Numbered from the stretch's first letter, positions 6,617 through 37,364 are shown. The stretch is 43,386 nucleotides of DNA from a virus (IMGVR_UViG_2563366976_000013); one strand, 5' to 3'. Notes: generated by a model from the letters alone, not told the origin. Made by a program: numbers and translations.

Positions 6617-6631
6617 TTACCTTTCAGGTAA
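6617..6631. promoter_or_regulatory. Operator-type palindrome TTACCtttcaGGTAA
   Basis: Perfect 5-5-5 inverted repeat; same motif family as cI/cro operators. Confidence 0.5.
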
Positions 6632-6668
6632 TTTGCAAAACGTGCTGGATAGCAAACAAATTATTTGC

Positions 6669-6688
6669 TACTGTATAAATATACAGTT
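6669..6688 (+). promoter_or_regulatory. LexA (SOS) box TACTGTATAAATATACAGTT
   Basis: 18/20 match to consensus TACTGTATATATATACAGTA, CTGT-N8-ACAG core intact; 20 nt upstream of ATG at 6708. Confidence 0.7.
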
Positions 6689-6707
6689 ATTGCATGGAGA
6701 AGATAAG

Positions 6708-6965
6708 ATGCAGCAGTATCACTATCCACTGGAAGACGGATTTACCGAAAGGATTCACACGCCGGGAGGCGTCAGGTCACTGGTGGAGGGATCGCACTTG
6801 ATGAAATTACTCCGGGATCTCGATAAGGATGGATTTAATGTCGATGGCCCACTTGCCGAACTGACTGCACTGATTAACTACGTCACCAGCTCACAGATGT
6901 CTATGCAGGATCTGCAAACACATCTCGACTATTGTGCCGAACAATTACGAAAACAAACCAGATAA
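6708..6965 (+). CDS. Small SOS-controlled antirepressor-like protein (standalone version of the Ant C-terminal domain)
   Basis: 85 aa from ATG 6708 with RBS GGAGAAG; aligns with C-terminal about 80 aa of the three Ant paralogs (PL..G..IH.P.GV..L.E.S.LM.LL..L..DG..V.G..AELT....Y......DLQTH..Y). Confidence 0.6.
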   Translation: MQQYHYPLEDGFTERIHTPGGVRSLVEGSHLMKLLRDLDKDGFNVDGPLAELTALINYVTSSQMSMQDLQTHLDYCAEQLRKQTR

Positions 6966-6968
6966 GGT

Positions 6969-7011
6969 TTGCAATTACCAAATGGAGTGCTTATATTTAC
7001 CTTTGCGGTAA
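6969..7011 (+). promoter_or_regulatory. Promoter for ant1 leader with overlapping operator
   Basis: -35 TTGCAA (6969-6974), 17-bp spacer, -10 TATATT (6992-6997), palindrome TTACCtttgcGGTAA 6997-7011 over the start site. Confidence 0.55.
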
Positions 7012-7038
7012 ATTTACATCGCACTCCTCTTGTGCCAT

Positions 7039-7090
7039 AGTAATCAGGCACTGGCAAAATCCAGTGCCGGGATTGGTCTCCCGGATTACT
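7039..7090 (+). ncRNA. Conserved structured leader RNA element upstream of ant1 (three-way junction fold), followed by leader terminator
   Basis: AGTAATC...GATTACT outer stem enclosing hairpins GGCACTGG-caaaat-CCAGTGCC and CCGGGA-ttggtc-TCCCGG; near-identical copy in ant2 leader (11160-11213, minus strand). Confidence 0.45.
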
Positions 7091-7104
7091 ACAGAGGCAC
7101 ATAT

Positions 7105-7124
7105 GCCGCATAAGCGGTTTTTTT
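7105..7124 (+). terminator. Leader terminator/attenuator upstream of ant1
   Basis: Short GC stem GCCGC-ataa-GCGG followed by T7 run; analogous stem plus T7 in ant2 leader. Confidence 0.45.
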
Positions 7125-7278
7125 ATGTGTAAAGCGCACCTATTCTATGGTGGGCTGTGTGGGGGCACCGAAAGGTGCGCCGGGTTCCTTTGTAGCCGGT
7201 AAGACCAACTCTGCACAGTTCACCACCATCTGATTGGTCTCAGCGGTGGTGATTAACCTAACTACAAAGGTGATCGCC

Positions 7279-7971
7279 ATGAATACCAAACCTTCCATCT
7301 TTTCCTTTGAGTCATCCTGCCAGATCCGTATGTTCATGATTGACGGAGAACCTTGGTTTGTCACCAAAGATGTGTGCAATGCTTTGAATATTGATGTTAC
7401 ACAAGCGAGAAAACTTGATAAAAAAGGCTGGAACAAAAAGGGGCTGTATTCAATACAGACCCCTGGTGGAATACAAGAACTATCCATCGTTTCAGAATCA
7501 GGTCTCTACATCCTTATTCTGCGTTGCAAAGAGGCAATGACTGAGGGAACGAGAGCATTCAGATTTCTTGAATGGGTTACAGGCGAAGTACTTCCTCAGA
7601 TCCGCCGCACCGGAAGCTACATTAAAAACTCGCTCCCGCAGGAAGAACGCATAAAGATGGTTGCCGACCAGGTAGCCAACGCCACGGCGTCAGCAGTAAT
7701 GCAGGCGATGAAGATAGAGAACAAAACCTACAGCGCCCCACTGAAGCCCGGCTACCGCAGCCTGATTCATTCGCCGTCTGGTGTTCTCGGCCTGACGGAG
7801 AACTCACTGCTGATGAATCTGCTGAACCAGTTACAGGACGACGGGCACGACGTATCGGGCGCGGCGGCGGAGCTGACCACCATGTTCTGCTACATCGTCG
7901 GTGTGAGCAAATGCCTGCGTGATATCCAGACCCACGCGGAATACATCAACGACAAGGCAGGGTTCTTCTGA
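7279..7971 (+). CDS. Antirepressor paralog 1: Bro-N/KilA-N-type N-terminal domain plus shared Ant C-terminal domain
   Basis: IDGEPWFVTKDVCNAL motif (Bro-N-like); C-terminal 100 aa near-identical to the other two paralogs; start at ATG 7279 with RBS AAAGGTGA (ORF track begins at upstream TTG 7234). Confidence 0.75.
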   Translation: MNTKPSIFSFESSCQIRMFMIDGEPWFVTKDVCNALNIDVTQARKLDKKGWNKKGLYSIQTPGGIQELSIVSESGLYILILRCKEAMTEGTRAFRFLEWVTGEVLPQIRRTGSYIKNSLPQEERIKMVADQVANATASAVMQAMKIENKTYSAPLKPGYRSLIHSPSGVLGLTENSLLMNLLNQLQDDGHDVSGAAAELTTMFCYIVGVSKCLRDIQTHAEYINDKAGFF

Positions 7972-8014
7972 CGGGCGGCGGCACAGGGATGTGCCTTTAA
8001 ATAATTCTGTACGA

Positions 8015-8057
8015 TTGCAGACCGGGGGTGAATAGCGTACTATTACCTTAAAGGTAA
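8015..8057 (+). promoter_or_regulatory. Promoter/operator module (J element) upstream of YafO-like cassette 1
   Basis: -35 TTGCAG, 17-bp spacer, -10 TACTAT ending at first T of palindrome TTACCttaaaGGTAA (8043-8057). Confidence 0.5.
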
Positions 8058-8099
8058 ACCTGTTTTTATTTTATACCTGTAACTTACCGGAGATTAAAG

Positions 8100-8426
8100 A
8101 TGACAAAACTTGGATTCGTGATGAGAGGTCCGGTAAGAAGCGGAACTCATGCAAAGCGTAGCAAGAGTCGTATTTTTACTGGTAAGGTTGTAGCACGTAA
8201 ATCAGCTATTGGCTCGTTCAATAGTGAAAATGCGGCATTGCGCCATATTTTTATCAGCACAAAGCCAAGAGCATCCGCTGATGTGCATACAATGTCTATT
8301 CCTATCACAAAGAATATAAAGCGGATAAAAAAGCTCTCATCTGCAGAATCAAAAGAGATATCTTTCCGCCAGCTTAACTCATTAGAAACGCATATGAAGG
8401 AAGAGGAATTCGATGTTTTTGAGTGA
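8100..8426 (+). CDS. Putative antitoxin/partner protein of YafO-like toxin 1 (basic, no recognised fold)
   Basis: 108 aa, RBS GGAG, overlaps toxin start by 14 nt (translational coupling); weak similarity to partner of cassette 2 (ARKSAIGSFNSE vs ARRSFNGSVE). Confidence 0.35.
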   Translation: MTKLGFVMRGPVRSGTHAKRSKSRIFTGKVVARKSAIGSFNSENAALRHIFISTKPRASADVHTMSIPITKNIKRIKKLSSAESKEISFRQLNSLETHMKEEEFDVFE

Positions 8427-8925
8427 GTATAGCGGGAAGGTTATACCTACTGGTGAGTTTAAAACTGATGACTTTCTGATTTCGCTAAAAGATGCTTTTA
8501 AACAACACTGGCGTCATGGTCATCATCCTGATCTGGGAAAAGATACTCTTTTTGAAAGACCAGAGGAAGTATTAGGCTTCCATCTCAGAAAGGTTCATGT
8601 CAATATTGGTGAATATGCATCATATTCATACTCATGTACTGAACAGTGTTGGGATGAGTGGTCATATGGATTGATTGATGAACAAGGAAATTACAGGCCA
8701 AAACCAACCAGTAACGCATATCTCATATATGCAGTCAATGAAATAAGAGATGCAGCCTTACTAGCTTATTGGGACCCGCCCGCACACACCAAAGCTAACG
8801 CAAAAGTTTGGATGGATTCCGTATTGAATTTCACAAAATTATTTCATGAACGAACGAATACAGCTCCACTTAGTAGAAATGTTTATCCGTGGGATTATTC
8901 GTACAAATCCAAAAAGCCTGCATAG
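8413..8925 (+). CDS. YafO-like toxin domain protein, copy 1 (type II toxin, ribosome-dependent mRNA interferase family, by motif)
   Basis: Motifs W.HGHHPDLGKD..FERP...L.FHLRKVHV and AYLIYAV...DAALLAYWDPPAH resemble YafO from memory; paralog of 9440..9985; RBS AAGAGGAA. Confidence 0.5.
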   Translation: MFLSEYSGKVIPTGEFKTDDFLISLKDAFKQHWRHGHHPDLGKDTLFERPEEVLGFHLRKVHVNIGEYASYSYSCTEQCWDEWSYGLIDEQGNYRPKPTSNAYLIYAVNEIRDAALLAYWDPPAHTKANAKVWMDSVLNFTKLFHERTNTAPLSRNVYPWDYSYKSKKPA

Positions 8926-8935
8926 TAGTTTTTTA

Positions 8936-9155
8936 TGGACGAAACAAAAGTCAGTGCTACACTCATTGACGCCACATTGAGGTGGCTTATAGATGGAAAT
9001 TTCACAATGAAAAAAGCATTTGCTGCACTGTTCGTTTTGTTGTCTCTGGTAGCGTCAACTCAGGCCTTTGCCGGTCGTTGTCAGCACGACAGCGACACTG
9101 CTGCTGACGGCTCCCGCTGCGGTGGGCGTTCTGCGGATTCCCGCCCGGGCGGCGG
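8936..9155 (+). repeat. Direct repeat copy A (220 bp, one mismatch to copy B at 10007..10226)
   Basis: Identical sequence block containing small signal-peptide ORF; seen directly. Confidence 0.9.
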
Positions 9156-9174
9156 CACAGGGATGTGCCTTTAA
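9007..9174 (+). CDS. Small secreted Cys-containing peptide (55 aa) or gene fragment, copy 1
   Basis: Signal peptide MKKAFAALFVLLSLVASTQAFA then about 30-aa mature part with Cys residues; ends inside J junction sequence; weak RBS. Confidence 0.3.
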   Translation: MKKAFAALFVLLSLVASTQAFAGRCQHDSDTAADGSRCGGRSADSRPGGGTGMCL

Positions 9175-9205
9175 ATAATTCTGTACAGATTGCAGGTGAA
9201 TAGCG

Positions 9206-9225
9206 TACTATTACCTCAAGGGTAA
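9206..9225 (+). promoter_or_regulatory. -10 TACTAT plus operator palindrome TTACCtcaagGGTAA upstream of cassette 2
   Basis: Same J module as at 8038-8057. Confidence 0.5.
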
Positions 9226-9285
9226 ACGGATTGGTTTCATTTTTATTAATCCGTGTAATGAACTTATGAGATATGAGGTAATGTC

Positions 9286-9465
9286 ATGCGAAACGAAAAA
9301 TTGCAGATGCGTAGAGCGCAAGCTGCCGCAAGACGTTCTTTCAATGGAAGCGTAGAGTACGTAAAAGTTACTATGACAAAAGATCACGCAAGTCGCGTAT
9401 CCCGCGCTTTCTTTGATTCTCGTAACAATAAGGAAAATTATGAGTTCGTCTGCGTCGCAGAATGA
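9286..9465 (+). CDS. Putative antitoxin/partner of YafO-like toxin 2 (59 aa, below ORF-track cutoff)
   Basis: ATG 9286 with RBS GAGGT 8 nt upstream; overlaps toxin 2 start by 26 nt; manual translation MRNEKLQMRRAQAAARRSFNGSVEYVKV... Confidence 0.3.
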   Translation: MRNEKLQMRRAQAAARRSFNGSVEYVKVTMTKDHASRVSRAFFDSRNNKENYEFVCVAE

Positions 9466-9985
9466 TAAAAATCAAATTGTCAGATATAAGGGTCGAGTAT
9501 TGCATACGCAAAATTTCTCGGCCCTTTGTGCATCTGATCTTGAGCTGAAGAAAGTATCTGATGCCTTTACCCAGTATTGGAAAACGGGATACCATCCATC
9601 TCTTGGTAAAGATGCTGCATTTGCTCGTCCGACAGAAATGCTTAAACTAAATGTCAGGCATACTCATGTCGATAACCAAGACTATATTCCAGAAGATAGT
9701 GATAAAAAACACACTGGTAAAAAATCATCTTGGGATGCATGGAAAAATATAGCGTCTGTGCAAGTAAAATGCATACCAACAAGTGATTGCTTTTTAGTTT
9801 ATTCGGTAAATCACAATCGTGATGCGCTGGTTATGTTTTTTGTTGACGCAGATGCCCACAACATAACTGAGCAAGAAGAGTTTAAAGAGGCAGCAATCAC
9901 TATCAGTTATCAATTCTTTGAGAAAACAAAAACAGAACCAATGCCTTTAGAAGAAGATCTTTTTTCTGATAAATGGAAGGAATAG
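9440..9985 (+). CDS. YafO-like toxin domain protein, copy 2
   Basis: Motifs W.TGYHPSLGKD..FARP...L.LNVRHTHV and CFLVYSV...DALVMFFVDADAH; start at ATG 9440 with RBS AAGGA; followed by terminator. Confidence 0.5.
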   Translation: MSSSASQNDKNQIVRYKGRVLHTQNFSALCASDLELKKVSDAFTQYWKTGYHPSLGKDAAFARPTEMLKLNVRHTHVDNQDYIPEDSDKKHTGKKSSWDAWKNIASVQVKCIPTSDCFLVYSVNHNRDALVMFFVDADAHNITEQEEFKEAAITISYQFFEKTKTEPMPLEEDLFSDKWKE

Positions 9986-10005
9986 CCCGCAGCGCGGGCT
10001 TTTTT
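9984..10005 (+). terminator. Rho-independent terminator after toxin 2
   Basis: AGCCCGC-agc-GCGGGCT stem followed by T5. Confidence 0.6.
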
Positions 10006-10006
10006 G

Positions 10007-10226
10007 TGGACGAAACAAAAGTCAGTGCTACACTCATTGACGCCACATTGAGGTGGCTTATAGATGGAAATTTCACAATGAAAAAAGCATTTGCTGCACT
10101 GTTCGTTTTGTTGTCTCTGGTAGCGTCAACTCAGGCCTTTGCCGGTCGTTGTCAGCACGACAGCGACACTGCTGCTGACGGCTCACGCTGCGGTGGGCGT
10201 TCTGCGGATTCCCGCCCGGGCGGCGG
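10007..10226 (+). repeat. Direct repeat copy B
   Basis: 220 bp, one mismatch vs 8936..9155. Confidence 0.9.
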
Positions 10227-10239
10227 TGGCATTCGTTAA
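10078..10239 (+). CDS. Small secreted Cys-containing peptide, copy 2 (variant C-terminus)
   Basis: Same signal peptide and mature region as copy 1; differs only in last 5 residues. Confidence 0.3.
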   Translation: MKKAFAALFVLLSLVASTQAFAGRCQHDSDTAADGSRCGGRSADSRPGGGGIR

Positions 10240-10312
10240 AAACAAGGCCGCGAAAGCGGCCTGTGACATGTCACGATAGTTTCGTTTTGCACATCCCTGT
10301 GCCGCCGTTCTG

Positions 10313-10969
10313 TCAGAAGAACCCTGCTTTGTCGTTGATGTATTCCGCGTGCGTCTGGATATCACGCAGGCATTTGCTCACACCGACGATGTAGCAGAAC
10401 ATGGTGGTCAGCTCCGCCGCCGCGCCCGATACATCGTGCCCGTCTTCCTGCAACTGGTTCAGCAAATTCATCAGCAGTGAGTTCTCCGTCAGGCCGAGAA
10501 CACCAGACGGCGAATGAATCAGGCTACGGTAGCCGGGCTTCAGTGGGGCGCTGTATTCTTTTTTGTCTTCCAGCTTGATCGCCTCCATAATGGCGGGCAT
10601 GAAGCCTGACAAGACCTTCTCCACTTTTGTTTCTTGTTGTCTTAAACGTTTCTCGCATTCAATGAAGTAGCGTCGCACCTGGCGACCTTTTTCGTTACGC
10701 TCGACCATCGCCAGCTCTTTGGCTGTATCAAGGGTGAGGTGGTACTCTTTGCGGTTGTGGCCGCCTCTACCAGATGTTTGCTTTCCCAAATTGGAAAGCA
10801 AAATATAGTCTTGATTTTCAATGAATTCGTATTCTGATATGCGATTTGTAATCCATGCTGCAAACACCTTTTTAACACCTAAAAAAGCGTGCAGATCGCG
10901 GGCATTACAAAGTAGGGCTGTTTCGTTAGATATAGTGCCGTTGAATACGGGGATGAGTTGAGCGTTCAT
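10313..10969 (-). CDS. Antirepressor paralog 2: AntA-type N-terminal domain plus shared Ant C-terminal domain
   Basis: N-terminus [23 protein letters not shown], middle [20 protein letters not shown]; C-terminus near-identical to ant1 and ant3; RBS GGAGACG. Confidence 0.75.
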
Positions 10970-11125
10970 GATGGCGTCTCCACTTAGCGAATTACATCAC
11001 CACCGCTGAGACCAATCAGATGGTGGTGAACTGAACGGAGTTGGTCTTACCGGCCTAAGTGGTACCGGCGTCCTTTCGGACCCCCATTCAGCCCACCATA
11101 ATTCTGGCATGACTGTGCTATACGC

Positions 11126-11285
11126 ATAAAAAAACCACGTCTGGCGTGGTATGCGCCACTTAGTAATCCGGGAGACCAATCCCGGCACTGGATTTTGCCA
11201 GTGCCCGATTACTATGGCACAAGAGGAGTGCGATGTAAATTTACCGAAAAGGTAATGATAAACGCTAAGAAATATTAAAATCAAC
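11126..11285 (-). promoter_or_regulatory. ant2 promoter, operator (11241-11255), structured leader (11160-11213) and leader terminator (11126-11150)
   Basis: Mirror image of ant1 control region with near-identical structured element; palindrome TTACCgaaaaGGTAA. Confidence 0.5.
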
Positions 11286-11402
11286 CATATTTGGTTAATG
11301 CGTATAAAAGAGCCAGCAGCGAGAAATTGTGCCGCGACGTAAAATAACGAGCATCTGCTGGCTTACAACCAGCGATGTTTCAAATTTGTCACTATTATCA
11401 AC

Positions 11403-11750
11403 GTGCCATTCCACGGCGCAGAGCTTTATGTTGTCAATCACAACGGCGAACCGTATACCCCAATGAAACCTATCGTTGAGGGAATGGGGCTAGACTGGAA
11501 ATCTCAACATAAGAAGATTTCTCAACGCTTCTCGAAGGGTATGGTGGAAATCACCATACCTTCTGCCGGTGGGGTGCAAGCCATGATTTGTATGGCTTTA
11601 CGAAAATTGGCAGCTTGGTTGAACAGCATCAGCCCTAACAAAGTCCGTCCTGAAATCCGCGAAAGTATTGAAACATCAACCGTGTCGATATCGATACGGT
11701 TGATTATGACGGTAACTTATTGCCGTGTGTCCTATTTCTCCCACCACTAA
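11403..11750 (+). pseudogene. Probable remnant of an antirepressor N-terminal domain gene (truncated)
   Basis: GTG start; first 90 aa look like a conserved phage antirepressor N-domain (FHGAELYVVNHNGEPYTPMKPIVEGMGLDW), then low-complexity tail; near-palindrome at 11677-11702 at the break. Confidence 0.35.
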
Positions 11751-12047
11751 CTAATTATATTTGTCTTTAAAAATCTCATGGAATGATTGAGAGTAAGACT
11801 TTCCATACTTCAAATAACATTCTTCATCCAACTTTCTTAATGAACTTCGAACCTGTTCGTGGCATACAGCAAAAAAAACAAGTCCGCCGCCTATTAATAC
11901 CCCTATTGATATTGGGTTCGCAACATCCCATAAAAAATCGGCTAACAGAGCAAATACCCCACCGCCGCCAATAAATGCCCCTATAGCTCGGTTCGTTTTA
12001 GCTTGCTCATAGCGTCTCTCTAACTCACTAAACTCTTTAATATCCAT
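11751..12047 (-). CDS. Small two-TM glycine-zipper membrane protein (candidate superinfection-exclusion/moron protein)
   Basis: 98 aa, RBS AGAGGTG, AT-rich, GAFIGGGGVFALLADFLW and GVLIGGGLVFFAV segments; directly follows ejection-protein gene. Confidence 0.5.
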   Translation of the reverse strand: MDIKEFSELERRYEQAKTNRAIGAFIGGGGVFALLADFLWDVANPISIGVLIGGGLVFFAVCHEQVRSSLRKLDEECYLKYGKSYSQSFHEIFKDKYN

Positions 12048-12065
12048 ATAAGCACCTCTATAAAA

Positions 12066-15000
12066 TTACTTCATCACCGGATCCACCTGGTTTATTAGTG
12101 GCGCAATCCAGAACAGGTTATTGCCGGGTATCAGGGTTCGGACATTATGCACAATACGATCACCGGCATCACCATTCAACACTCCTGAGGTCACATCAAT
12201 GATGCTATCCGCAAGACCAAATGACGGTCCGAATAGAGATCCTACGAATCCACGACTGGCATACCTGGACTGTGTGCCAGTGCCAAATAAAGCCCCCAGC
12301 CCAACAGCACCACCAGTCGCCTTTTCAGCCATGTTGTTATATTCCATCAATGGCCCAAGAATACCGGATCTATCTATACCCTCAAGCACCAGCTTCTCTG
12401 GTGACCAGTCAACATTTTTCCCTTTCGATGCTTCTTTAAGCGCATAGACCAGTGAGCCAAGAGCAATCTGAAATGCAGTGCCATAATAAAATTGCGCAGT
12501 TCCTTCCTGTAACCCACCAAGTAGCGCACGGTTGTATGAAGCCGTTGTGAATGATTTAAACTGAAATATCGTTCGCCCCATTGGAGTACTCGCCCATAAA
12601 GGTGTGTCACCAATACCGGGGGTGATGATAGTGTTATTAACGTCTTTCAGAACCGCTGACTGGAATACTCCGGCAACGTACTGATCGTCCCATTTATCAA
12701 AGTTACCAATGTGCCATCCATCAATTACCTCACCATGTTTCTCGAACTCACTGCGAATACGCGCAGCCATATTGTCGTTGATACCGAGTTTTGCCAGGCG
12801 GCGTGCAGGAAATGCACCGGACAAAATACCGTCTGAAATAACCATTCCGTTCATGGATTTGTTTATGTCATTAAAGCGATCCATGAGTGTCAGCTTGCCG
12901 AAGGCATCAGTAATTCGCTCCATTCCGGCTTCGACTGCTGTTGTCCTGGAAGAGCTGTCAACAAGATCACCAATTGCACGAGAGCGTGAATGCAGTACAG
13001 TTTCCAGTCCGATACCCATCTTCAACATCTCTTCTTTGCTGGCCTTAAATGCCGGTGATTGGGATATCTGAGAAGCATAGCCTTTCATGGTGTTACGGAA
13101 ACCATTAACCATAACCCCTCTGGCCAGATCTGGAATAGCTGATACTGTCATTCCACCGAGTTTGGTCGTGAAGTTCACATCCCGCAGAAAAGCGCCAGCA
13201 CGAACAAAAAACGAAGACGGATCATCAGGCATCCCATATGTACCAACAAGACGATCGCGTAATGCTGTTATGTCTCTGAGATCATTTGCTCTTGATTTTG
13301 AAAGTCTGGACTGTTCTTTCCGTAATTCCTTTTCGTACTTTCGCATTAATGAATCGAGTTTACCCTGAGGAACAACTTCACCATTGCTCTCATAACGTGC
13401 TTTCAGATTTGCCACACTTTCGTCATATTTCGCCTTTATTTTTTCAGGCACTTCCCGTAACAGACTGTCATATTCGTCCTCAATTAATTGCAGACGCTCA
13501 GTCATAGTTCGTTTGCCAAATGTTCTCGTCAACTCAATTTCTGCTGCCGCTTCACGGATATGACGTTGCAGCACGTAATTCACATCACTTTCAAGATAAT
13601 CCCTGATAAGACTATCAGGAACATTTAATGTTCTTTCTTTCGTACTACCTGCGGCTTTTACAGAAAATACGCTGACAAAATCCTGTGGAACCTTAGCACC
13701 AGTAATTTTATTAATTACGATATCTGCTGCAATTTCAGCATCCTCAGGAACCAGTGTTTTATTTCCTCTCGACCACCAGTCAACCAAAATACGTCGAAAT
13801 TTATCGCGTTCACTGATTATTTTTCCAACTTTATATATGCGTGGGAAATAGCTTGCCTGGCCTAATGCTTTCAGTTCTTCATCTGGCGGCAATAAACCAA
13901 GCTTTTGCATTTCAACTTTCACCCGATTTAATACAGTTCGCATCGCCTGCGCCGTTTCCTGAACAACAGGATTAGCATGCACATCACCGCTTCGCATAGC
14001 ATTCCCAACCTGCTGACGAAATGAATCAAAACTCATGTCACCACCATCAGCTTTATACTTTGCGTATGCCTGTTTATTTCCGACAACAACAGCAGCTTCT
14101 TCACGCTGCCATCCACGTGTACGGGTTTCTACAGCTACCGGTGTTTCAATCCCCCTTTCATTTCCTTTAAGGGTGAAATTATTTTCGGCTAACTCCAGCG
14201 TTGTTTTTCGCACTGTCCTGGACGGAGACTCCATTAACCTTGTCAAAGGAGTAAGATAGCTCCCTGCTTTCCATGCAGCCTTTCCAACCACCCCACCAGA
14301 AACAGGGGTTAAATCATCCAGAGTCGCTGTATCAATTTTCATAGCACCAACACTACCACCATCGGAAAGCGAAGCGGCAGCCCTGTCAGTCACTGATGTA
14401 ATGCTCATATTATCAAGAGCATCAGCAACCTCACGTGTGGCTGCAGCCCGGACGGATGGCGAAAGCGCAACACCAGCACTGGCAAACACGCCGCTCATTA
14501 TCGCACCCGCTGCAACGTGAGCGGCACTTTCACCCCATGAGCGTGTTATTTGCTGATTATTCAGTACAACCTCGCTTAATGCAGTACCGGCAGCACCAAT
14601 CGCAATCTGTGAGCCAATACGCGCCAGTGCCCCTCCTTGAGCACCTGGGATAAACATTGACGCAACAGTAACCGGGTCAAAAAGCATCGCTGTTGCACTG
14701 GCAATTCCACCAGCTAAGCCTGCTTCAGAGATAAAACGCCGATCTTCATTTTCATCATCTATCTGCTGCTTAATCCACGCTGTTTCTTCTGGCGAGCGGG
14801 AACCTGCAAATTTCGCACCCCAGTATTCATAGCCGTGCAACTCATTTTTATCAGCATATGGGTTATAACCCTCGACCGGTTCAAACTGTCTGGCAGGACG
14901 GAAAAAACCAGCCAGAATATTGTTCTGTCGTATTGCTGCGGCAAGCAATGAAGGCTCTTTTTGGCGAGGCTCAGGGTTCTTACCTTCTGGCGGATGCACA

Positions 15001-26480: not shown

Positions 26481-26687
26481 TTACTGACCAAGCAGTGTTT
26501 TACCGCTGGTATTAGCGGTTGATGTGTCGCCCTGAGAACCGGTAAGCAGCGTAGAACTACGACCAGCAGCAGCGCGACGGCGACGTGTTTCTTCGTCGCG
26601 GGCATCAACAACGGCGGCATCCTGCTCCTGTGGTGCTGCCTGAACTTCTGGTGTTGCAGGCACTGATGGTGAGCTACCCATGCACAT
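26481..26687 (-). CDS. Small hypothetical protein upstream of portal
   Basis: 68 aa; translation initiation region GGAGTCATTGATATG mirrors that of portal (GGAGTCATTGAAATG). Confidence 0.35.
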   Translation of the reverse strand: MCMGSSPSVPATPEVQAAPQEQDAAVVDARDEETRRRRAAAGRSSTLLTGSQGDTSTANTSGKTLLGQ

Positions 26688-26755: not shown

Positions 26756-26792
26756 TTGACATTTAACGCACAAATTATTACCTTTTAGGTAA
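26756..26792. promoter_or_regulatory. -35-like TTGACA and operator palindrome TTACCttttaGGTAA at terminase-portal moron
   Basis: Palindrome 26778-26792; TTGACA at 26756-26761 on plus strand. Confidence 0.4.
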
Positions 26793-27114: not shown

Positions 27115-27191
27115 GTGGCATTAGCTCAGTTGGACAGAGCAACCGCCTTCTAAGCGGTTGGTCGCAGGTTCGAATCCTGCATGCCACGCCA
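27115..27191 (+). tRNA. tRNA-Arg (anticodon UCU, reads AGA)
   Basis: Manual cloverleaf: acceptor GTGGCAT/ATGCCAC, D-arm GCTC/GAGC, anticodon stem ACCGC/GCGGT with loop CTTCTAA, T-arm GCAGG-TTCGAAT-CCTGC, discriminator G, CCA encoded. Confidence 0.85.
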
Positions 27192-27394: not shown

Positions 27395-27409
27395 TTACCT
27401 TAAAGGTAT
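27395..27409 (+). promoter_or_regulatory. Operator-like site TTACCttaaaGGTAT overlapping RBS of moron ORF
   Basis: 14/15 match to palindrome family, 5 nt before ATG 27414. Confidence 0.35.
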
Positions 27410-27413
27410 AATC

Positions 27414-28262: not shown

Positions 28263-28265
28263 AAA

Positions 28266-29735: not shown

Positions 29736-30328
29736 TGATTACCATCCTGACGTTCTTTGAGTCGCTTCCTGGCTGCTGCTATGCGATCAGCAATTGTCAC
29801 ATTCACATTAACATCCAGACGTTCTTTGAACGCGTTGACATCAACATGCTTACCAATCAGCTCAAGGTTCTTCACCTTGTCAGGCCATTTAATTTTTTTG
29901 AGGATTGTCTCTATCGAATCCTCGTTCATGTTCATGATGGTCGATGACAGATCAAAGCCACTAAGCGTAGTGCGCCAGATTTTCGGCCACTCACGGATTG
30001 GTTTAAGGCTCCCATCGTCGTTGAGGATGTCGATCACGTCCATCTGGTCGATCTCCACCAGGCGCATGAGAACGTAATCAGCACTGACACGCATTCGTTT
30101 GTTGCGCTCCTCCATCAACTCGGCAATCCGTTTTTGAATGCGTTCATCGCGCATCATGACACTGGCTTTAACTGCCGCTGTATTTGGGGAGAATCCTGCG
30201 TTAATCGCTGCCTGAGTCTGGTTTTCAGGCGTTTTGATGTATGACTGGCAATAAGCCTCCTGCATTGCTGTTAGTGGCTTAAATTGCGTTGATTTGCGTT
30301 TATAGGTTTTAGGTTCAGCAGGCATCAT
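29732..30328 (-). CDS. terS: Terminase small subunit
   Basis: Position immediately upstream of terL with overlap; start placed at MMPAEPK with RBS GGTGG (ORF track extends to 30406). Confidence 0.6.
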   Translation of the reverse strand: MMPAEPKTYKRKSTQFKPLTAMQEAYCQSYIKTPENQTQAAINAGFSPNTAAVKASVMMRDERIQKRIAELMEERNKRMRVSADYVLMRLVEIDQMDVIDILNDDGSLKPIREWPKIWRTTLSGFDLSSTIMNMNEDSIETILKKIKWPDKVKNLELIGKHVDVNAFKERLDVNVNVTIADRIAAARKRLKERQDGNQ

Positions 30329-30446
30329 AACCACCGTGGTAATAGTTACCGTTTTGGTAATAGTACCATGCAAAATAAAGCCGCCATAGTTGGCGGCAGT
30401 ATTCAAAACCCGTCAAATTCATCATGCATAATCTACTCGTGACATG

Positions 30447-30785
30447 TCACACTATTAATTTCGTTTCATGCCAGCCTTTGGTCACCCAGCATTGCGAGTC
30501 ACCATTACACGGGCATGAATTAACTGGAACTCTCTCGCCGCACTTACCGCAACGTTTTCTGCTGATCGATTTTATACGCCCGCGCACCCGGGCATCATCC
30601 TGGCGGATCAGCAGCGCGATGTACTCGGCCATTTCATAGGGATCTCGACCAGGGCGCCGGGCGGCGCAGTTCCGCTCCAGCATTTCAATTTCCTGAGCAT
30701 CAAGCACAATCTCCAGCTTACGCACACCAGATGCAGCTTGTCTGGCTCTCTGAGCGGCTTTGCGCTCTGCTGCTGATTTAGCCAT
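30447..30785 (-). CDS. Zinc-finger protein, candidate late-gene regulator
   Basis: Cys cluster CGKCGERVPVNSCPC in C-terminus; basic N-terminus; last early gene before terminase. Confidence 0.35.
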   Translation of the reverse strand: MAKSAAERKAAQRARQAASGVRKLEIVLDAQEIEMLERNCAARRPGRDPYEMAEYIALLIRQDDARVRGRIKSISRKRCGKCGERVPVNSCPCNGDSQCWVTKGWHETKLIV

Positions 30786-31927: not shown

Positions 31928-31928
31928 A

Positions 31929-33166: not shown

Positions 33167-33227
33167 CTTTATCCTCGCTTATCCACATAACTTATTGATT
33201 ACATTGATAACTAAAAAGATCGTCGAT

Positions 33228-33836
33228 TCATGCCGATCTATTTTTCATCAGTGATTCATAAAACTTTTGCCACTTATGCCGACCGAAATTAGCCTTCGAG
33301 TTACAGCTCGAACAAAGGCAAATAAGGTTCTCCTGACGACAGTCTTGCTTGTCGTAATTGATGTGATGAGTTGTTAGCCTTTTGTCTGTTCCATCACAAC
33401 CTGGGTTCTGACAAGTAAAACCATCTCGCTCAATAACCCTCTTGCTCGTTTCTCGGAAATCCCACGGATACGGCAATCTCGATAATCCACCAGACCAGTT
33501 TGGATTTCCTTCCCCCTTCATCAGAGAAGAACGCATTATGTTGGAACACTGTTTCGAGCAGCATTTATGACGCTTCTCATGACTCAAGAAAACGGAGAAC
33601 GAAGATCCGCATACGCAGCATATTTTTAATACTCGCTTTAGTTCCCGATTTACCGTCTTGCCTCGCTGTGAAATTCCTACACACTGAAGTGAGCAGAACC
33701 TTGAAGATGAGTTGGCTCGCTTAACCTGATATTGCCTGCCACATACGGAACAAACCTTTTCGATTTTCCCACCCTTCCAATTCGGGTTTTTATCACCGGA
33801 TACAATCAATCCCGCAGCATTGGGCTTCTCGCTCAT
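33228..33836 (-). CDS. HNH endonuclease with N-terminal zinc-ribbon repeats
   Basis: HNH core TTHHINYDKQDCRQENLICLCSSCN; two NPNWKGG/NPNWSGG repeats with Cys pairs. Confidence 0.7.
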   Translation of the reverse strand: MSEKPNAAGLIVSGDKNPNWKGGKIEKVCSVCGRQYQVKRANSSSRFCSLQCVGISQRGKTVNRELKRVLKICCVCGSSFSVFLSHEKRHKCCSKQCSNIMRSSLMKGEGNPNWSGGLSRLPYPWDFRETSKRVIERDGFTCQNPGCDGTDKRLTTHHINYDKQDCRQENLICLCSSCNSKANFGRHKWQKFYESLMKNRSA

Positions 33837-34186
33837 AGTTCCTCAACCTCCCATCCACCACCGAGCTTTTTAGGTTTTGGATAAGCAACCTGAAAGACAA
33901 ACGGATAGCTGTCTGCCGCAACCTTCATCTTGACTCTCGCATCGTCAGTAAAGACTGACTTACTTCCCTTAACGTCCACCATCACCAACTGCCCGTCAGC
34001 CAACATCACGGCAAAATCTACAGTCAGGAAGCAGTTGTCAGCTAACCGCAGCTTGATACCCTCGAATCGATACCAGGCGATTTCCCCTGCACGTTTACGC
34101 TGCTCAAGGTGCTGGCAATACGCAGATTCTGTTTTGTTCATCTGGCCTGTTTTGAGTCGACCAAGAGCCTGTATCTGTTTTCTCAT
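33833..34186 (-). CDS. DUF1064-like protein (putative nuclease fold)
   Basis: Pattern SAYCQHLE..K.AGEI.WY.FEG.KL.L......VDF.V......V.VDVKG. Confidence 0.5.
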   Translation of the reverse strand: MRKQIQALGRLKTGQMNKTESAYCQHLEQRKRAGEIAWYRFEGIKLRLADNCFLTVDFAVMLADGQLVMVDVKGSKSVFTDDARVKMKVAADSYPFVFQVAYPKPKKLGGGWEVEEL

Positions 34187-34189
34187 GAT

Positions 34190-34266
34190 TTACCCTTGAG
34201 GTAATTAAAAACCACATAAGACACGAAATCAATAGATTTTAGAATATTTTATTACCCAACAGGTAA
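34190..34266 (-). promoter_or_regulatory. Internal early promoter bracketed by two operator palindromes
   Basis: TTACCcttgaGGTAA (34190-34204) and TTACCcaacaGGTAA (34252-34266); minus-strand -35 TTGATT / -10 TTTAAT between them. Confidence 0.45.
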
Positions 34267-34303
34267 TTATCAAGACGTAAAAAAATGCGCTATCGCGCTG
34301 GTA

Positions 34304-35086: not shown

Positions 35087-35894
35087 CCCACACCTCATCT
35101 ATCCAGTCAGTGTTATGCCAGTCAAGGCTCTTTCTGACTTCACCTGATTTCTGTCTACAGAACTGGATGCGCCTTGCCAGCTTCTGCTCCCACTGTGCCT
35201 GATGGTATGCCTTACCCTCAGCCATCCAGTAAATTCTGAACTCTGCAAGTTCCTGTGCCGTTGGCAGACTGTCCAGGTAGATCCCCTGCAATGAGCTTTT
35301 CCGAAGAAAGTCATCTGATGGCTGCCATTGTTCATGCATGACAAATTTGCCTAATTGCCCTGGCCCACCAGGAGGAACAAAGTTATTCATCACGGCGTTG
35401 TTTGCGCCGGGGTCATGAGGCACAGAATCCCCGCTTTTTGTCCTGCTCTCCCTCTCTTGGTTAAATGACTGGTTATATGACTGGTTCTGGATCCCGTTTT
35501 TGGGATCATTCAACATCCCGTTTTTGGGATCATTCAACATCCCGTTTTTGGGTATATTCCCGTTTTCGGGTATATTCCCGTTTTCGGGTTCATTGCCCCC
35601 CTCCCGGTTGCCTTTAATGTTCCCGTTTTTGGTTATATTAAGAGAGAAAACCCGCACTCTTTTTGTCGCTCCCTTTCTCTCTCCGGTATCTGAAATAAGC
35701 CCCATTTTCATGAGCGATATAAGCCCGGCCTGCACGGTTTTTTTATTCAGGCAAGTGTCTTTAACGAGGCGTTCTATGCTGGGGTAGCAGAGGTTATATT
35801 CATCGGCTCTGTCAGCCATCGAGAGCAGTATGAGCTTTAATGATGAGCTACCTGGATCTGTCTCCCAGGCCCAATCTGTTGCATGTCTGCTCAT
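35061..35894 (-). CDS. Replication initiator O-like protein (contains origin iterons)
   Basis: Position upstream of P; internal repeat NGNIPENGNIPKNGMLNDPKNGMLNDPKNG encoded by DNA iterons. Confidence 0.65.
   Translation of the reverse strand: MSRHATDWAWETDPGSSSLKLILLSMADRADEYNLCYPSIERLVKDTCLNKKTVQAGLISLMKMGLISDTGERKGATKRVRVFSLNITKNGNIKGNREGGNEPENGNIPENGNIPKNGMLNDPKNGMLNDPKNGIQNQSYNQSFNQERESRTKSGDSVPHDPGANNAVMNNFVPPGGPGQLGKFVMHEQWQPSDDFLRKSSLQGIYLDSLPTAQELAEFRIYWMAEGKAYHQAQWEQKLARRIQFCRQKSGEVRKSLDWHNTDWIDEVWDEINSRTS
35491..35640. repeat. Replication origin iterons
   Basis: Six or more copies of CCCGTTTT(T/C)GGG-containing 18-24 bp units, followed by AT-rich tract. Confidence 0.65.
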
Positions 35895-35909
35895 GATTAA
35901 TCTCCGCTA

Positions 35910-36173
35910 TCAGCTTGAGTGTTGTGGGGAGGAATTAATCATGATCTGCTTAATCTCTGCCCTGATGCGACGGTTTGATTCCATGGTGCACTCAACACAG
36001 TGTCCGTTGTAAACCCAGCGTTCACTGTCATGTCCATGCTTACATGGTTTTCCGGTGTAGTAGCGTTTAAGTCCGCGCTTTGCGGCATCAATACGTGTAA
36101 TGATTTCCATGGTAAGCCCTGTTATTAGTATTGGGATTACGGTCATTTTGTGCTGACACAAAAAAAAGATCAA
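35910..36173 (-). CDS. Small zinc-binding protein in cII-equivalent position (probable start 36110)
   Basis: CKHGH...CVEC motif; between Cro-like and O-like genes. Confidence 0.35.
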   Translation of the reverse strand: MIFFLCQHKMTVIPILITGLTMEIITRIDAAKRGLKRYYTGKPCKHGHDSERWVYNGHCVECTMESNRRIRAEIKQIMINSSPQHSS

Positions 36174-36260
36174 CCAGATTTGGTTTTTTATTACCTTTGA
36201 GGTACGAATAGATATGAAAAGACCGCCGGGTGGCGGTCTACAGAGGGTTGTAGCTGGATA

Positions 36261-36491
36261 TCATGAGTAGAAGAAGTATGCCAGTTCTGCTTTTGAGCGC
36301 AGCCATTGTCTTGTTTTACAGGCTTTAAAAAGCCCATTCATCAATACCTTACCTGGCATTTTGCGCTTACCTGTTAAGTGAGTCTGGATATAGTGACTCG
36401 TCGTTCCGGCTTCCTGTGCGAAGGCTTCACGCTCATCCGGAGTAAGTGCAAGCCAGTGCTTTTTGAAATCGAAATGTCCGTTATCGCTCAT
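36261..36491 (-). CDS. Cro-like HTH regulator
   Basis: 76 aa, first gene of early-right operon divergent from repressor gene. Confidence 0.5.
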   Translation of the reverse strand: MSDNGHFDFKKHWLALTPDEREAFAQEAGTTSHYIQTHLTGKRKMPGKVLMNGLFKACKTRQWLRSKAELAYFFYS

Positions 36492-36527
36492 AGCTATTGC
36501 CTGATATTTATTTCAGATAATAAATAT

Positions 36528-36590
36528 TCACCCATAAGGTAACAAAAATCAAGGATAGTTACCTGTGGGGTGCATTTACCTGTTGGGTAA
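36528..36590. promoter_or_regulatory. Tripartite immunity operator O1-O3 with divergent promoters
   Basis: O1 TCACCcataaGGTAA (36528-36542), O2 TTACCtgtggGGTGC (36559-36573), O3 TTACCtgttgGGTAA (36576-36590); minus-strand -35 TTGTTA / -10 TATTAT overlaps O1. Confidence 0.55.
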
Positions 36591-36645
36591 TATTGCTTTA
36601 AATTGAATCATCTACTGATTCATATATGAGGCGATTTTCCAGAAA

Positions 36646-37230
36646 ATGAAAAGTATCCAGGACGTCCGCAGGCAAAATCTCAACGACTTGATCGACCGTG
36701 AATTCAATGGTGTTCAGACGCGGATGGCAGAAAAACTTGGAACTCAGGCAAATCTGGTAAACCGCTGGGCTCTTGGCAAGAAGGTTATCGGCGACCAGGT
36801 TGCACGAAAAATTGAAGCTGCCGCCAATAAACCCCGTAACTGGCTTGATATTGATCGTTCGCTTTCTCAGGAGGGTTTTCAGCCTGTCGGCCCGAGCGAT
36901 ATAGGTCAGCTGGCGGCTCACAACCTGGAACGCTGGATGAGCGAAAGCCGCGACCTTTCAACACAGGGAAAACTTCACCGCGCATCCGGCGTCGCCCAGG
37001 TGACAATCAGCCGCCTGTTAAACAATGAGGTCAGCGTTTCCATTTCCACCCTGGAGAATGTTGCATCCGCATTCGGGCGTCACGGATATGAACTACTGAT
37101 TCACCCGCACGACCCTGCGACTATCAACTATGACCGCTCGCGCTACGCATTGTTACCCGAAACCGAGAAAGCAAAGATCGAAAGTTACATTGAATTTGTC
37201 ATCAACCAGAACGAAAAAAGCAAAAAATAA
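36646..37230 (+). CDS. CI-like repressor with two HTH regions and no recognisable LexA/S24-type self-cleavage domain
   Basis: 194 aa; HTH-like segments near residues 20-45 and 115-140; C-terminus lacks Ala-Gly/Ser..Lys peptidase signature; divergent from Cro-like gene. Confidence 0.55.
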   Translation: MKSIQDVRRQNLNDLIDREFNGVQTRMAEKLGTQANLVNRWALGKKVIGDQVARKIEAAANKPRNWLDIDRSLSQEGFQPVGPSDIGQLAAHNLERWMSESRDLSTQGKLHRASGVAQVTISRLLNNEVSVSISTLENVASAFGRHGYELLIHPHDPATINYDRSRYALLPETEKAKIESYIEFVINQNEKSKK

Positions 37231-37250
37231 AACTATATTTTTCAGTAAGT

Positions 37251-37275
37251 AAGCCGCCTCATGGCGGCTTTTTTA
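37251..37275 (+). terminator. Rho-independent terminator after repressor gene
   Basis: AAGCCGCC-tcat-GGCGGCTT followed by T6. Confidence 0.7.
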
Positions 37276-37287
37276 TTGCCAGATAGA

Positions 37288-37364
37288 TTACCTTACGGGT
37301 AATTTTTTTAACTCATATCTATTGACAACAAACCAAATAAGCATAATTATTACCTCAACGGTAA
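37288..37364 (+). promoter_or_regulatory. Early-left promoter flanked by two operator palindromes
   Basis: TTACCttacgGGTAA (37288-37302), -35 TTGACA (37322-37327), 17-bp spacer, -10 AATTAT (37345-37350), TTACCtcaacGGTAA (37350-37364). Confidence 0.55.

What the first reader, a model, noticed from the sequence alone, without database searches (positions are those of the whole stretch)
6617..37364. A single 15-bp palindrome (TTACC-N5-GGTAA) marks an extended prophage regulon
Perfect or near-perfect copies occur at 6617, 6997, 8043, 9211, 11241, 26778, 27395, 34190, 34252, 36191, 36528, 36559, 36576, 37288 and 37350. Three sit in the cI/cro intergenic region overlapping a divergent promoter, and two bracket the early-left promoter, so they behave as immunity operators. 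The same site overlaps the -10 or start site of promoters for three antirepressor genes, both YafO-like cassettes, the LexA-boxed gene, the tRNA/membrane-protein moron and an internal early promoter. One DNA-binding protein therefore appears to control immunity, antirepressors and accessory cassettes together, which is more extensive than the usual two-operator arrangement.
Basis: seen in the sequence. Interest (0 to 1): 0.7.

Follow-up and report, generated by a model that had tools for sequence, protein, structure and literature searches.

The report
Repressor operators scattered across an epsilon15-like prophage
The repeated 15-bp palindrome is real and is almost certainly the binding site of this prophage's main repressor, placed at nearly every promoter, but the same motif is already annotated as the repressor site in the related reference phage epsilon15, so this is an expanded example of a known design.

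Summary
TTACC-N5-GGTAA occurs 12 times exactly (0.02 expected) and 16 times with one mismatch or fewer (0.71 expected). All 17 candidate sites are non-coding.

The window is a phiV10/epsilon15-like (Uetakevirus) prophage. Its repressor (36646..37230) is a full-length homologue of the SPC32H Rep (PDB 5D50). Its small LexA-boxed gene (6708..6965) is 88% identical to the SPC32H antirepressor Ant.

The epsilon15 RefSeq record already annotates seven dispersed "repressor" binding sites, all ATTACC-N5-GGTAAT. The motif, its positions and its spacings (62 bp, 17-18 bp) recur in 11 related phages and prophages. A Providencia relative with altered Rep and Cro recognition helices carries different palindromes instead.

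What is new here:
- The operator sits on two isrK/C4-antirepressor modules.
- It sits on two YafO-like cassettes.
- It sits on one moron promoter.
- A promoter-operator unit is conserved while the cargo after it varies.

The claim that the palindrome controls the LexA-boxed gene is not supported, because that site lies about 38 bp upstream of the LexA box.

Verdict: new member of a known kind, modest interest.

The parts
36646..37230 (+). Rep. This is the prophage main repressor (194 aa), with an N-terminal HTH DNA-binding domain, a second HTH_3-like C-terminal domain and no S24 peptidase domain.
   Evidence: Pfam gives HTH_3 at 106-147 and a YdaS-like HTH at 21-61. It matches PDB 5D50, the SPC32H repressor, over its full length with E 3.4e-42. 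The helix ANLVNRW is invariant in 5 homologues.
36261..36491 (-). Cro-like small regulator, divergent from rep.
   Evidence: It matches phrog_35 'transcriptional repressor' at E 5.6e-13. The motif AGTTSHYIQxHLT is invariant in 6 homologues.
36528..36590 (.). OR, made of three operators: 36528-36542 (one mismatch), 36559-36573 (two mismatches) and 36576-36590 (perfect). The first lies in the spacer of a leftward TTGATT-18-AATATT promoter for cro.
   Evidence: The 17-bp and 47-48-bp spacings recur in 9 genomes.
37288..37364 (+). OL/PL: a distal operator at 37288-37302 and a proximal operator at 37350-37364, 62 bp apart. They flank TTGACA (37322) -17- AATTAT (37345-37350). The last T of the -10 is the first T of the proximal operator.
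   Evidence: The same architecture is seen in 9 genomes.
34190..34266 (-). Second early-right promoter, after the P-like gene and its terminator. Operators at 34252-34266 (distal) and 34190-34204 (proximal) lie 62 bp apart around TTGATT-17-TTTAAT, followed by the DUF1064 gene (33833..34186).
36191..36205 (-). Single one-mismatch operator after the cro terminator, about 60 bp upstream of the predicted start point of a TTGATC-17-CAAAAT promoter for the next early gene.
   Evidence: The homologous GTACC variant is conserved in phiV10 and Tyrion.
30328..30360 (-). Operator pair (30346-30360 perfect, 30328-30342 one mismatch), 18 bp apart, between a terminator and the terS ATG (30328). TACTAT abuts the upstream operator.
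   Evidence: The homologous pair is present in phiV10, epsilon15 (annotated 12-27), Tyrion, SPC32H and the Klebsiella and Citrobacter prophages.
26778..26792 (.). Operator in the divergent region between the head-gene operon (26481..26687 onward, - strand) and the tRNA-Arg/moron side (+ strand).
   Evidence: The epsilon15 homologue 2931-2947 is annotated as a repressor site next to an IHF site.
27395..27409 (+). Operator (GGTAT variant) in the spacer of TGACCA-16-TATAAT, immediately before the moron protein (likely start 27438, end 28262).
   Evidence: The phrog_4780 profile begins at residue 9 of the ORF. The site is identical in sequence to the phiV10 site upstream of int.
6617..6631 (.). 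Operator in the divergent region between the tail-fibre gene (3393..6512, -) and ant. It abuts the palindromic hexamer TTGCAA (6633-6638).
   Evidence: The epsilon15 homologue 19895-19911 is annotated as a repressor site.
6669..6965 (+). LexA box tACTGTATAAATATACAGTt (6669-6688) and ant (6708..6965, 85 aa).
   Evidence: Ant is 88% identical to SPC32H Ant. LexA boxes lie upstream of ant in phiV10, epsilon15, Tyrion and SPC32H.
6969..7971 (+). Antirepressor module 1, in order: TTGCAA-17-TATATT, the operator (6997-7011), TTTACA-17-CATAGT, isrK (7048-7124), C4 RNA (7143-7230) and the Bro-N antirepressor (7234/7279..7971).
   Evidence: Promoter scan. Rfam gives isrK 74.7 bits and C4 78.6 bits. Pfam gives Bro-N at 2e-13.
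10313..11284 (-). Antirepressor module 2, in mirror orientation: TTGATT-18-TATCAT, the operator (11241-11255), isrK (11204-11128), C4 (11103-11019) and the AntA antirepressor (10313..10969).
7975..9174 (+). Cargo slot 1: a terminator hairpin, TTGCAG-17-TACTAT and the operator (8043-8057), then three genes (phrog_5933, a YafO-like protein, a small membrane protein).
9143..10239 (+). Cargo slot 2: the same promoter-operator unit (operator 9211-9225), then phrog_6685, a YafO-like protein and a small membrane protein.

Best explanation
The palindrome aTTACC-N5-GGTAAt is the operator of the Uetakevirus immunity module. It is bound by Rep (36646..37230) through the N-terminal HTH, with two HTH domains contacting half-sites 10 bp apart. 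The Cro-like protein very probably binds it as well.

In the lysogen, Rep occupies an operator at almost every transcription unit. The occupied units are:
- OR (three sites)
- PL and a second early-right promoter, each with a distal site at about -62 and a proximal site whose first base is the last base of the -10
- the site after the cro terminator
- the terS/late operon start
- the head-operon/tRNA divergent region
- the tail-fibre/ant divergent region
- two isrK-C4-antirepressor modules
- two YafO-like cassettes
- one moron

Silencing is therefore direct and genome-wide rather than cascade-based. This much is shown by anatomy and by comparison with relatives.

Rep homologues are tetramers with two DNA-binding units (from the literature). 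I infer that the invariant 62-bp pairs are clamped by one tetramer that encloses the promoter.

Induction is inferred from the homologous SPC32H system plus the LexA box present here. DNA damage removes LexA from the ant promoter. The 85-aa Ant then disassembles Rep, and all Rep-controlled promoters open together. These include the secondary antirepressors, which are additionally gated by the IsrK and C4 RNAs and would lock in the lytic state.
For: Enrichment and placement: 12 exact sites against 0.02 expected, and all 17 sites are non-coding.

Identity of the system:
- The window matches phiV10-like phages at 95-97%.
- Rep is a homologue of PDB 5D50 at E 3e-42.
- Ant is 88% identical to SPC32H Ant.
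- A near-consensus LexA box lies at 6669-6688.

Prior annotation: epsilon15 NC_004775.2 carries seven 'protein_bind: repressor' features, all ATTACC-N5-GGTAAT, at homologous dispersed places.

Conservation:
- The same motif sits at the same relative positions in phiV10, epsilon15, Tyrion, BUCT711, SPC32H and five prophages from Superficieibacter, Erwinia, Klebsiella and Citrobacter.
- The Rep helix ANLVNRW and the Cro helix TTSHYIQ are invariant in the sequenced phages aligned.

Covariation: Providencia Rep (34% identical, helix PNVISRY; Cro helix also changed) lacks the motif. It has TAACC-N5-GGTTA and TAAAC-N5-GTTTA at PL and an equivalent promoter.

Specificity to the resident repressor: the isrK-C4-ant module is shared with Stx phages, Gifsy-1 and APSE-1, but only Uetakevirus copies carry the palindrome upstream.

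Promoter overlap.

Experiments in relatives:
- Overexpressing the ZX5 repressor, which that paper reports as identical in sequence to the phiV10 repressor, cut lysin and holin transcription by more than 99.9%. Its Bro-N antirepressor favoured the lytic cycle (PMC9782041).
- Rep binds palindromic DNA as a tetramer (summarised in PMC9638917 and PMC9986798).
Against: - No binding data exist for this phage, and the primary SPC32H and epsilon15 papers could not be read here. I therefore cannot say which sites have been footprinted.
- All promoter assignments are consensus matches, and the scan found no excess of promoter-like sites over shuffles.
- Several sites sit at about -44 to -70 rather than on core promoter elements (6617, 26778 and 36191, and 6997 and 11241 relative to the conserved isrK promoter). 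At those sites repression of the adjacent gene is not evident.
- The covariation test has one outgroup, and rep and cro changed together in it, so it does not separate the two proteins.
Confidence: 0.85

Rival explanations
1. The palindrome is real, but only the immunity-region sites (OR, PL) are true operators. The dispersed single sites would be architectural loop anchors, Rep reservoirs or activator-type sites. In that case the accessory cassettes and antirepressors are not Rep-repressed.
For: Several dispersed sites lie at -44 to -70 relative to the best promoter candidates. The promoter-like count is not above the shuffle expectation. Site 6617 cannot be a strong repressor of ant if SOS induction is to work.
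Against: At 8043, 9211, 6997, 11241, 30346 and 37350 a -10-like hexamer ends exactly on the first T of the site, pointing toward the downstream gene. At 27395 the site fills the spacer of a TGACCA-16-TATAAT promoter. The sites are kept at each cassette while the cargo changes.
Confidence: 0.12
2. The motif is the target of another phage regulator and Rep binds something else. The candidates are the Cro-like protein alone or the gp55-like 'transcriptional regulator' (30447..30785).
For: The Cro-like helix is as invariant as the Rep helix, and it changed together with the motif in Providencia. The gp55-like gene lies next to the terS site pair.
Against: No other repeated palindrome is seen in the rep-cro and PL regions that could serve Rep. 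The epsilon15 record assigns the motif to the repressor. A late activator would not have sites at OR and PL. In lambda-type switches Cro and the repressor share operators, so Cro binding complements Rep binding rather than excluding it.
Confidence: 0.05
3. The enrichment is a by-product of duplicated promoter modules, that is shared ancestry of flanking DNA, and the 15-mer itself is not under selection.
For: The flanks of 6997 and 11241 are inverted copies of each other, and the flanks of 8043 and 9211 are near-identical.
Against: The other 13 sites have unrelated flanks and different N5 cores. The half-sites are 92-100% conserved while the N5 and flanks drift across six phage genomes (91 sites). 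Positions and spacing are retained in hosts from five further genera.
Confidence: 0.02

Closest known systems
Epsilon15 / SPC32H (Uetakevirus) Rep-Ant immunity system
   Same: - Rep is a full-length homologue (43% identical, PDB 5D50).
- Ant is 88% identical.
- A LexA box lies at ant.
- The operator motif ATTACC-N5-GGTAAT is identical.
- Sites are dispersed in the same places: terS, head operon, ant/tail fibre, PL and the post-replication promoter.
   Different: This prophage and its phiV10-group relatives add operator-bearing accessory units that are absent from epsilon15. These are two isrK-C4-antirepressor modules, two YafO-like cassettes and a moron promoter. OR and PL site counts also differ slightly: epsilon15 has three annotated sites in its PL region, whereas this window has two.
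Phage P1 C1 regulon with the immI (c4-icd-ant) operon
   Same: One primary repressor has many operators scattered at separate promoters. An antirepressor operon preceded by a C4 antisense RNA lies under a repressor-controlled promoter. PMC8201110 states that Ant expression is regulated by C1, C4 RNA and Icd, and it maps C1 operator sites across the genome.
   Different: From my own knowledge, P1 C1 is a different protein that recognises an asymmetric 17-bp operator. P1 is a plasmid prophage. Here the operator is a palindrome bound by an XRE-type tetrameric Rep, and the SOS input comes through a separate LexA-controlled small Ant.
Gifsy-1 isrK-orf45-anrP module
   Same: The isrK sRNA with its terminator is followed by an antirepressor-like gene, and the proximal promoter is conserved (TTGACx-17-CTATAx) (PMC4825925).
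   Different: Gifsy-1, Stx-phage and APSE-1 copies have no TTACC-N5-GGTAA upstream. In the Uetakevirus copies the operator abuts the -35, and a second upstream promoter overlaps it.
Lambda-type OR/OL switch
   Same: The repressor and cro genes are divergent with three operators between them, and there are operators at the early-left promoter.
   Different: Rep has no S24 autocleavage domain. The operators are not confined to the immunity cassette. PL uses a 62-bp bracketing pair rather than three adjacent sites.
Mycobacteriophage L5 stoperators and phiC31 conserved inverted repeats
   Same: A single repressor has more than 15 sites genome-wide that silence the prophage directly (from my own knowledge).
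   Different: L5 sites are asymmetric, orientation-dependent and often lie inside transcription units. Here all sites are palindromic and intergenic.

Membership tests
Uetakevirus (epsilon15/SPC32H-type) Rep-Ant immunity system | Full-length Rep homologue with an N-terminal HTH DNA-binding domain and a C-terminal oligomerisation/Ant-binding domain | tested here: met
   phmmer against PDB chain 5D50_A gives E 3.4e-42 over residues 1-190.
Uetakevirus (epsilon15/SPC32H-type) Rep-Ant immunity system | Repressor lacks a RecA-stimulated S24 autocleavage domain | tested here: met
   Pfam finds only HTH families in the 194-aa protein.
Uetakevirus (epsilon15/SPC32H-type) Rep-Ant immunity system | Small Ant protein encoded next to the tail-fibre gene | tested here: met
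   Gene 6708..6965 is 88% identical to SPC32H Ant.
Uetakevirus (epsilon15/SPC32H-type) Rep-Ant immunity system | LexA box at the ant promoter | tested here: met
   tACTGTATAAATATACAGTt lies at 6669-6688, 20 bp before the ant ATG. It is conserved in four relatives.
Uetakevirus (epsilon15/SPC32H-type) Rep-Ant immunity system | Operator ATTACC-N5-GGTAAT at dispersed promoters | tested here: met
   The annotated epsilon15 repressor sites have this sequence. The window has 16 sites with one mismatch or fewer.
Uetakevirus (epsilon15/SPC32H-type) Rep-Ant immunity system | Rep physically binds these sites and Ant releases it | not testable with these tools
   This needs EMSA, footprinting or ChIP. The primary papers (PMC4983836, PMC3807360, PMC2698709) are not held in the library.
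P1-type C1 regulon / immI | Many operators of one repressor at separate transcription units | tested here: met
P1-type C1 regulon / immI | C4 antisense RNA upstream of the antirepressor gene | tested here: met
   Rfam C4 scores 78.6 and 61.2 bits against a gathering score of 45.
P1-type C1 regulon / immI | Asymmetric 17-bp C1 operator and a C1-family repressor | tested here: not met
   The site is a perfect palindrome, and the repressor is an XRE/HTH_3-type homologue of SPC32H Rep. It works like P1 but is not a member.
Lambda-type CI/Cro switch | S24-peptidase CI repressor cleaved on SOS, with operators confined to OL/OR | tested here: not met
   There is no S24 domain. Twelve of the 17 sites lie outside the immunity region.
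L5-type stoperators | Asymmetric sites within transcription units that act in an orientation-dependent way | tested here: not met
   All sites are palindromic and intergenic.

The most novel reading that the evidence does not exclude
The promoter-operator unit may be a portable 'cargo slot'. Recombination right after the operator would enrol any incoming cassette into the Rep regulon. The heterologous antirepressors held silent by Rep (Bro-N, AntA) would then be released only after LexA/Ant-triggered collapse of Rep. That would make this prophage an SOS-gated relay that induces or interferes with co-resident prophages.

A corollary concerns immunity evolution. Scattering 15 or more operators may have frozen operator specificity across a whole genus, even though Rep has diverged to 43% identity. 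Lambdoid phages, by contrast, swap compact immunity cassettes.
Probability: 0.2. Interest if true: 0.55.

Novelty: new member of a known kind. Interest (0 to 1): 0.3.

Why it matters
It gives a near-complete, testable map of the Rep regulon for the phiV10 group of E. coli prophages. These phages are common in pathogenic E. coli and are used as O157 reporter phages.

It predicts that the YafO-like cassettes, the coiled-coil moron protein and the extra antirepressors are induction-phase genes rather than lysogenic-conversion genes.

It also offers a simple explanation for why immunity specificity appears conserved across a genus.

It does not reveal a new regulatory principle.

Tried and rejected
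- **Covariation within the genus.** I looked for covariation between motif and repressor type, but all four repressor groups (43-99% identity) use the same motif, so the test was uninformative. One Providencia outgroup found through genome contigs gave the only informative contrast.
- **Primary papers.** I tried to read Kropinski 2007 (PMC2698709), Kim & Ryu 2013 (PMC3807360), Kim 2016 (PMC4983836) and the P1 genome paper (PMC523184). None is held.
- **Full-text searches.** Searches for the motif string and for Uetakevirus plus repressor found no description of the operators.
- **LexA boxes at the YafO cassette promoters.** I considered this because of CTGTACAGATTGCAG. The register is wrong, and the only true CTGT-N8-ACAG box in a regulatory region is at ant.
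- **Different geometry of the two 62-bp pairs.** I first thought the 34190/34252 pair had a different geometry from PL. The multi-genome alignment showed the same -62/+1 design.
- **Site 27395 as a copy of an att/int-proximal site.** Its sequence is identical to the phiV10 site upstream of int, but here it sits in a moron promoter.
- **An exactly matching E. coli genome.** No record covered 80% or more of 5500-12500.


Full report
**1. The observation**

TTACC-N5-GGTAA occurs 12 times exactly in 43,386 bases, against 0.02 expected from dinucleotide-preserving shuffles. It occurs 16 times with one mismatch or fewer, against 0.71 expected.

Three carry one mismatch (27395, 36191, 36528) and one carries two (36559).

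Under a crude gene call that is 91% coding, 15 of 17 sites are entirely non-coding. The other two (6617, 27395) fall in 5' ORF extensions. Homologues indicate these extensions are not translated. Ant starts at 6708. The PHROG profile for the moron protein starts at residue 9, which corresponds to 27438.

A pooled profile of 91 sites from six genomes gives aTTACC-(A/T-rich N5)-GGTAAt. The half-sites are 92-100% conserved.

**2. What the window is**

The window is a phiV10/epsilon15-like podovirus prophage (genus Uetakevirus). The immunity region is 95-97% identical to phiV10, phiv142-3, PAS61, ZX5 and TL-2011b. The attachment core ATTGAGTGGGAATGATT lies at 1162-1178, so bases 1-1161 are host DNA. 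The prophage runs off the right end inside int.

The CI-like gene (36646..37230) encodes 194 aa with two HTH regions and no peptidase domain. It aligns over its full length with the crystallised SPC32H repressor, PDB 5D50 (E 3.4e-42).

It is 88% identical to SPC32H Ant. It is preceded by tACTGTATAAATATACAGTt at 6669-6688.

From my recollection of Kim & Ryu 2013 and Kim et al. 2016, Rep is not RecA-cleaved and is disassembled by the LexA-controlled Ant. I could not open either paper. Secondary sources confirm that Rep binds palindromic DNA as a tetramer, with DNA-binding pairs formed across dimers (PMC9638917, PMC9986798).

**3. The motif is already attributed to the repressor in the type phage**

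The epsilon15 RefSeq record carries seven "protein_bind: repressor, lysogeny" features. They lie:
- before terS
- before the first head gene
- between ant and the tail fibre
- three in the PL region
- one before the RuvC-like gene

All seven read ATTACC-N5-GGTAAT. The phiV10 record does not annotate them, but phiV10 has 14 sites with one mismatch or fewer at the homologous places.

**4. Comparative evidence that the sites are functional and tied to rep/cro**

The same motif recurs at the same relative positions in phiV10, epsilon15, Tyrion, Klebsiella BUCT711 and SPC32H. It also recurs in prophages of Superficieibacter, Candidatus Erwinia dacicola, K. pneumoniae and two Citrobacter species.

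Rep identity falls to 43%, yet the putative recognition helix ANLVNRW is invariant. So is the Cro-like AGTTSHYIQxHLT.

The spacings are retained:
- 62 bp at PL (63 bp in Klebsiella)
- 62 bp at the promoter after the replication genes
- 17-18 bp at OR and at terS
- 47-48 bp to the third OR site

One outgroup gives a contrast. The Providencia alcalifaciens homologue is 34% identical and has helix PNVISRY. Its Cro helix is also changed. That locus lacks the canonical motif. It has TAACC-N5-GGTTA and TAAAC-N5-GTTTA at PL and at an equivalent promoter instead. This is a single case and does not separate Rep from Cro.

**5. Architecture**

PL and the second early-right promoter share one design. In order it reads: a distal operator, about 31 nt, ctaTTGAca, a 17-nt spacer, then a -10 hexamer whose last T is the first T of the proximal operator. 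The two sites are therefore centred near -62 and +1.

The same "-10 ends on the first T" arrangement, pointing toward the downstream gene, is seen at 6997, 8043, 9211, 11241, 30346 and 37350.

Other placements differ:
- At OR, the one-mismatch site 36528 lies in the spacer of a leftward TTGATT-18-AATATT promoter for cro. Sites 36559 and 36576 lie upstream of it and over a weak rightward candidate promoter for rep.
- At 27395 the site fills the spacer of TGACCA-16-TATAAT.
- Sites 36191, 26778 and 6617 sit about 58-70 bp upstream of the best promoter candidates. This resembles the distal position without a full proximal partner.

All promoter calls are consensus matches. The scan found no excess over shuffles, so these assignments are inferences.

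**6. The accessory region**

Rfam finds isrK followed by C4 antisense RNA directly downstream of the operators at 6997 and 11241. These lie upstream of a Bro-N antirepressor and an AntA antirepressor respectively.

The isrK-C4-ant module is shared with Stx phages, Gifsy-1 and APSE-1. In those phages similarity starts at the isrK promoter (TTGACx-17-CTATAx) and there is no palindrome. In Uetakevirus copies the operator abuts the -35 of that promoter, and an extra upstream promoter overlaps it.

In Gifsy-1, PisrK drives both the sRNA and, by read-through, the antirepressor-like anrP (PMC4825925). In P1, Ant is controlled by C1 plus C4 RNA and Icd (PMC8201110). The logic here is therefore P1-like, although the proteins are unrelated.

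The two YafO-like cassettes are each preceded by a conserved unit of about 85 bp. The unit consists of a terminator hairpin, TTGCAG-17-TACTAT and the operator. The same unit in TL-2011b and phiv142-3 is followed by different cargo, with sequence diverging within a few bases after the operator.

**7.

- Site 6617 lies about 38 bp upstream of the LexA box. It does not overlap the promoter region where the LexA box lies. If Rep repressed ant strongly, SOS induction could not start. The site more plausibly serves the divergent tail-fibre side or acts as a distal site.
- The "third antirepressor" (11403..11750) is a GTG-started N-terminal fragment. It has no site of its own.

**8. Mechanism and confidence**

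I put 0.85 on the statement that this palindrome is the Rep (and probably Cro) operator and that it marks a prophage-wide set of directly repressed promoters.

Clamping of the 62-bp pairs by one tetramer, and lock-in by secondary antirepressors, are inferences. ZX5 experiments are consistent with them. Repressor overexpression abolished lysin and holin transcription, and the Bro-N antirepressor favoured lysis (PMC9782041).

**9. Novelty**

The motif, its attribution and its dispersal are already in the epsilon15 record. The repressor family is structurally characterised. Genome-wide operator sets are classical in P1, L5 and phiC31 (from my own knowledge).

Three things are new for this prophage:
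- the extension to isrK/C4-antirepressor modules, YafO-like cassettes and a moron
- the cargo-slot pattern
- the genus-wide constancy of the operator

I rate it a new member of a known kind, with interest 0.3.

Noticed in passing
window 7975-8059 and 9143-9227; L010 3834; L011 3154: A promoter-operator unit of about 85 bp (terminator hairpin, TTGCAG-17-TACTAT, operator) is conserved in several phiV10-group phages. The genes after it differ, and sequence similarity ends within a few bases of the operator. This suggests a recombination hotspot or 'cargo slot'.
   Followed up: partly
L016 (Providencia alcalifaciens NZ_ABXW01000046.1) 7675-7707, 9905-9919, 10657-10744, 10901-10915: A distant Rep/Cro pair with changed recognition helices is accompanied by two different palindromes, TAACC-N5-GGTTA and TAAAC-N5-GTTTA, at PL and an equivalent promoter. 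It is unclear which protein binds which palindrome.
   Followed up: partly
window 41323-41412 (+): There is an Rfam hit to sRNA-Xcc1 (62.9 bits, gathering score 53) in the early-left region near the DNA methyltransferase and int end. It overlaps a minus-strand ORF at 41132..41455 that has no Pfam match.
   Followed up: no
window 27115-27191; L001 (phiV10) 2672-2923: A tRNA-Arg(TCT) lies on the strand opposite the structural genes. The annotated phiV10 ORF gp04 appears to overlap the homologous tRNA position on the other strand and is probably spurious. SPC32H annotates the tRNA.
   Followed up: partly
L001 (phiV10) 41-715 versus window 29732-30328: The phiV10 terS start is probably annotated too far upstream. 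The operator pair lies inside the annotated CDS in phiV10, but it lies upstream of the ATG in epsilon15, Tyrion, SPC32H and this window.
   Followed up: partly
window 6708-6965 versus 36646-37230: Ant is 88% identical to SPC32H Ant, whereas its presumed partner Rep is only about 43% identical. This asymmetry is unexpected if Ant contacts the Rep C-terminal domain.
   Followed up: no
window 3393-6512 (-): The tail-fibre gene matches E. coli prophage genes annotated as 'endosialidase catalytic beta-propeller domain-containing protein'. This suggests a K1-capsule-specific tailspike. There is also no oac gene, and no operator between the tail fibre and the lysis genes, unlike in phiV10.
   Followed up: no
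window 1-1178: The host flank encodes a glycine-zipper/TraT-like lipoprotein fragment and a DUF5384 protein. The prophage attachment core ATTGAGTGGGAATGATT lies at 1162-1178.
   Followed up: partly
window 27395-27409 versus L001 26870-26884: The operator in the moron promoter (TTACCTTAAAGGTAT) is identical to the phiV10 site upstream of int. All relatives keep the GGTAT variant upstream of int, where it forms a TATAAT/TATAC -10. This implies that Rep also represses Pint. That site lies beyond the end of the window.
   Followed up: partly
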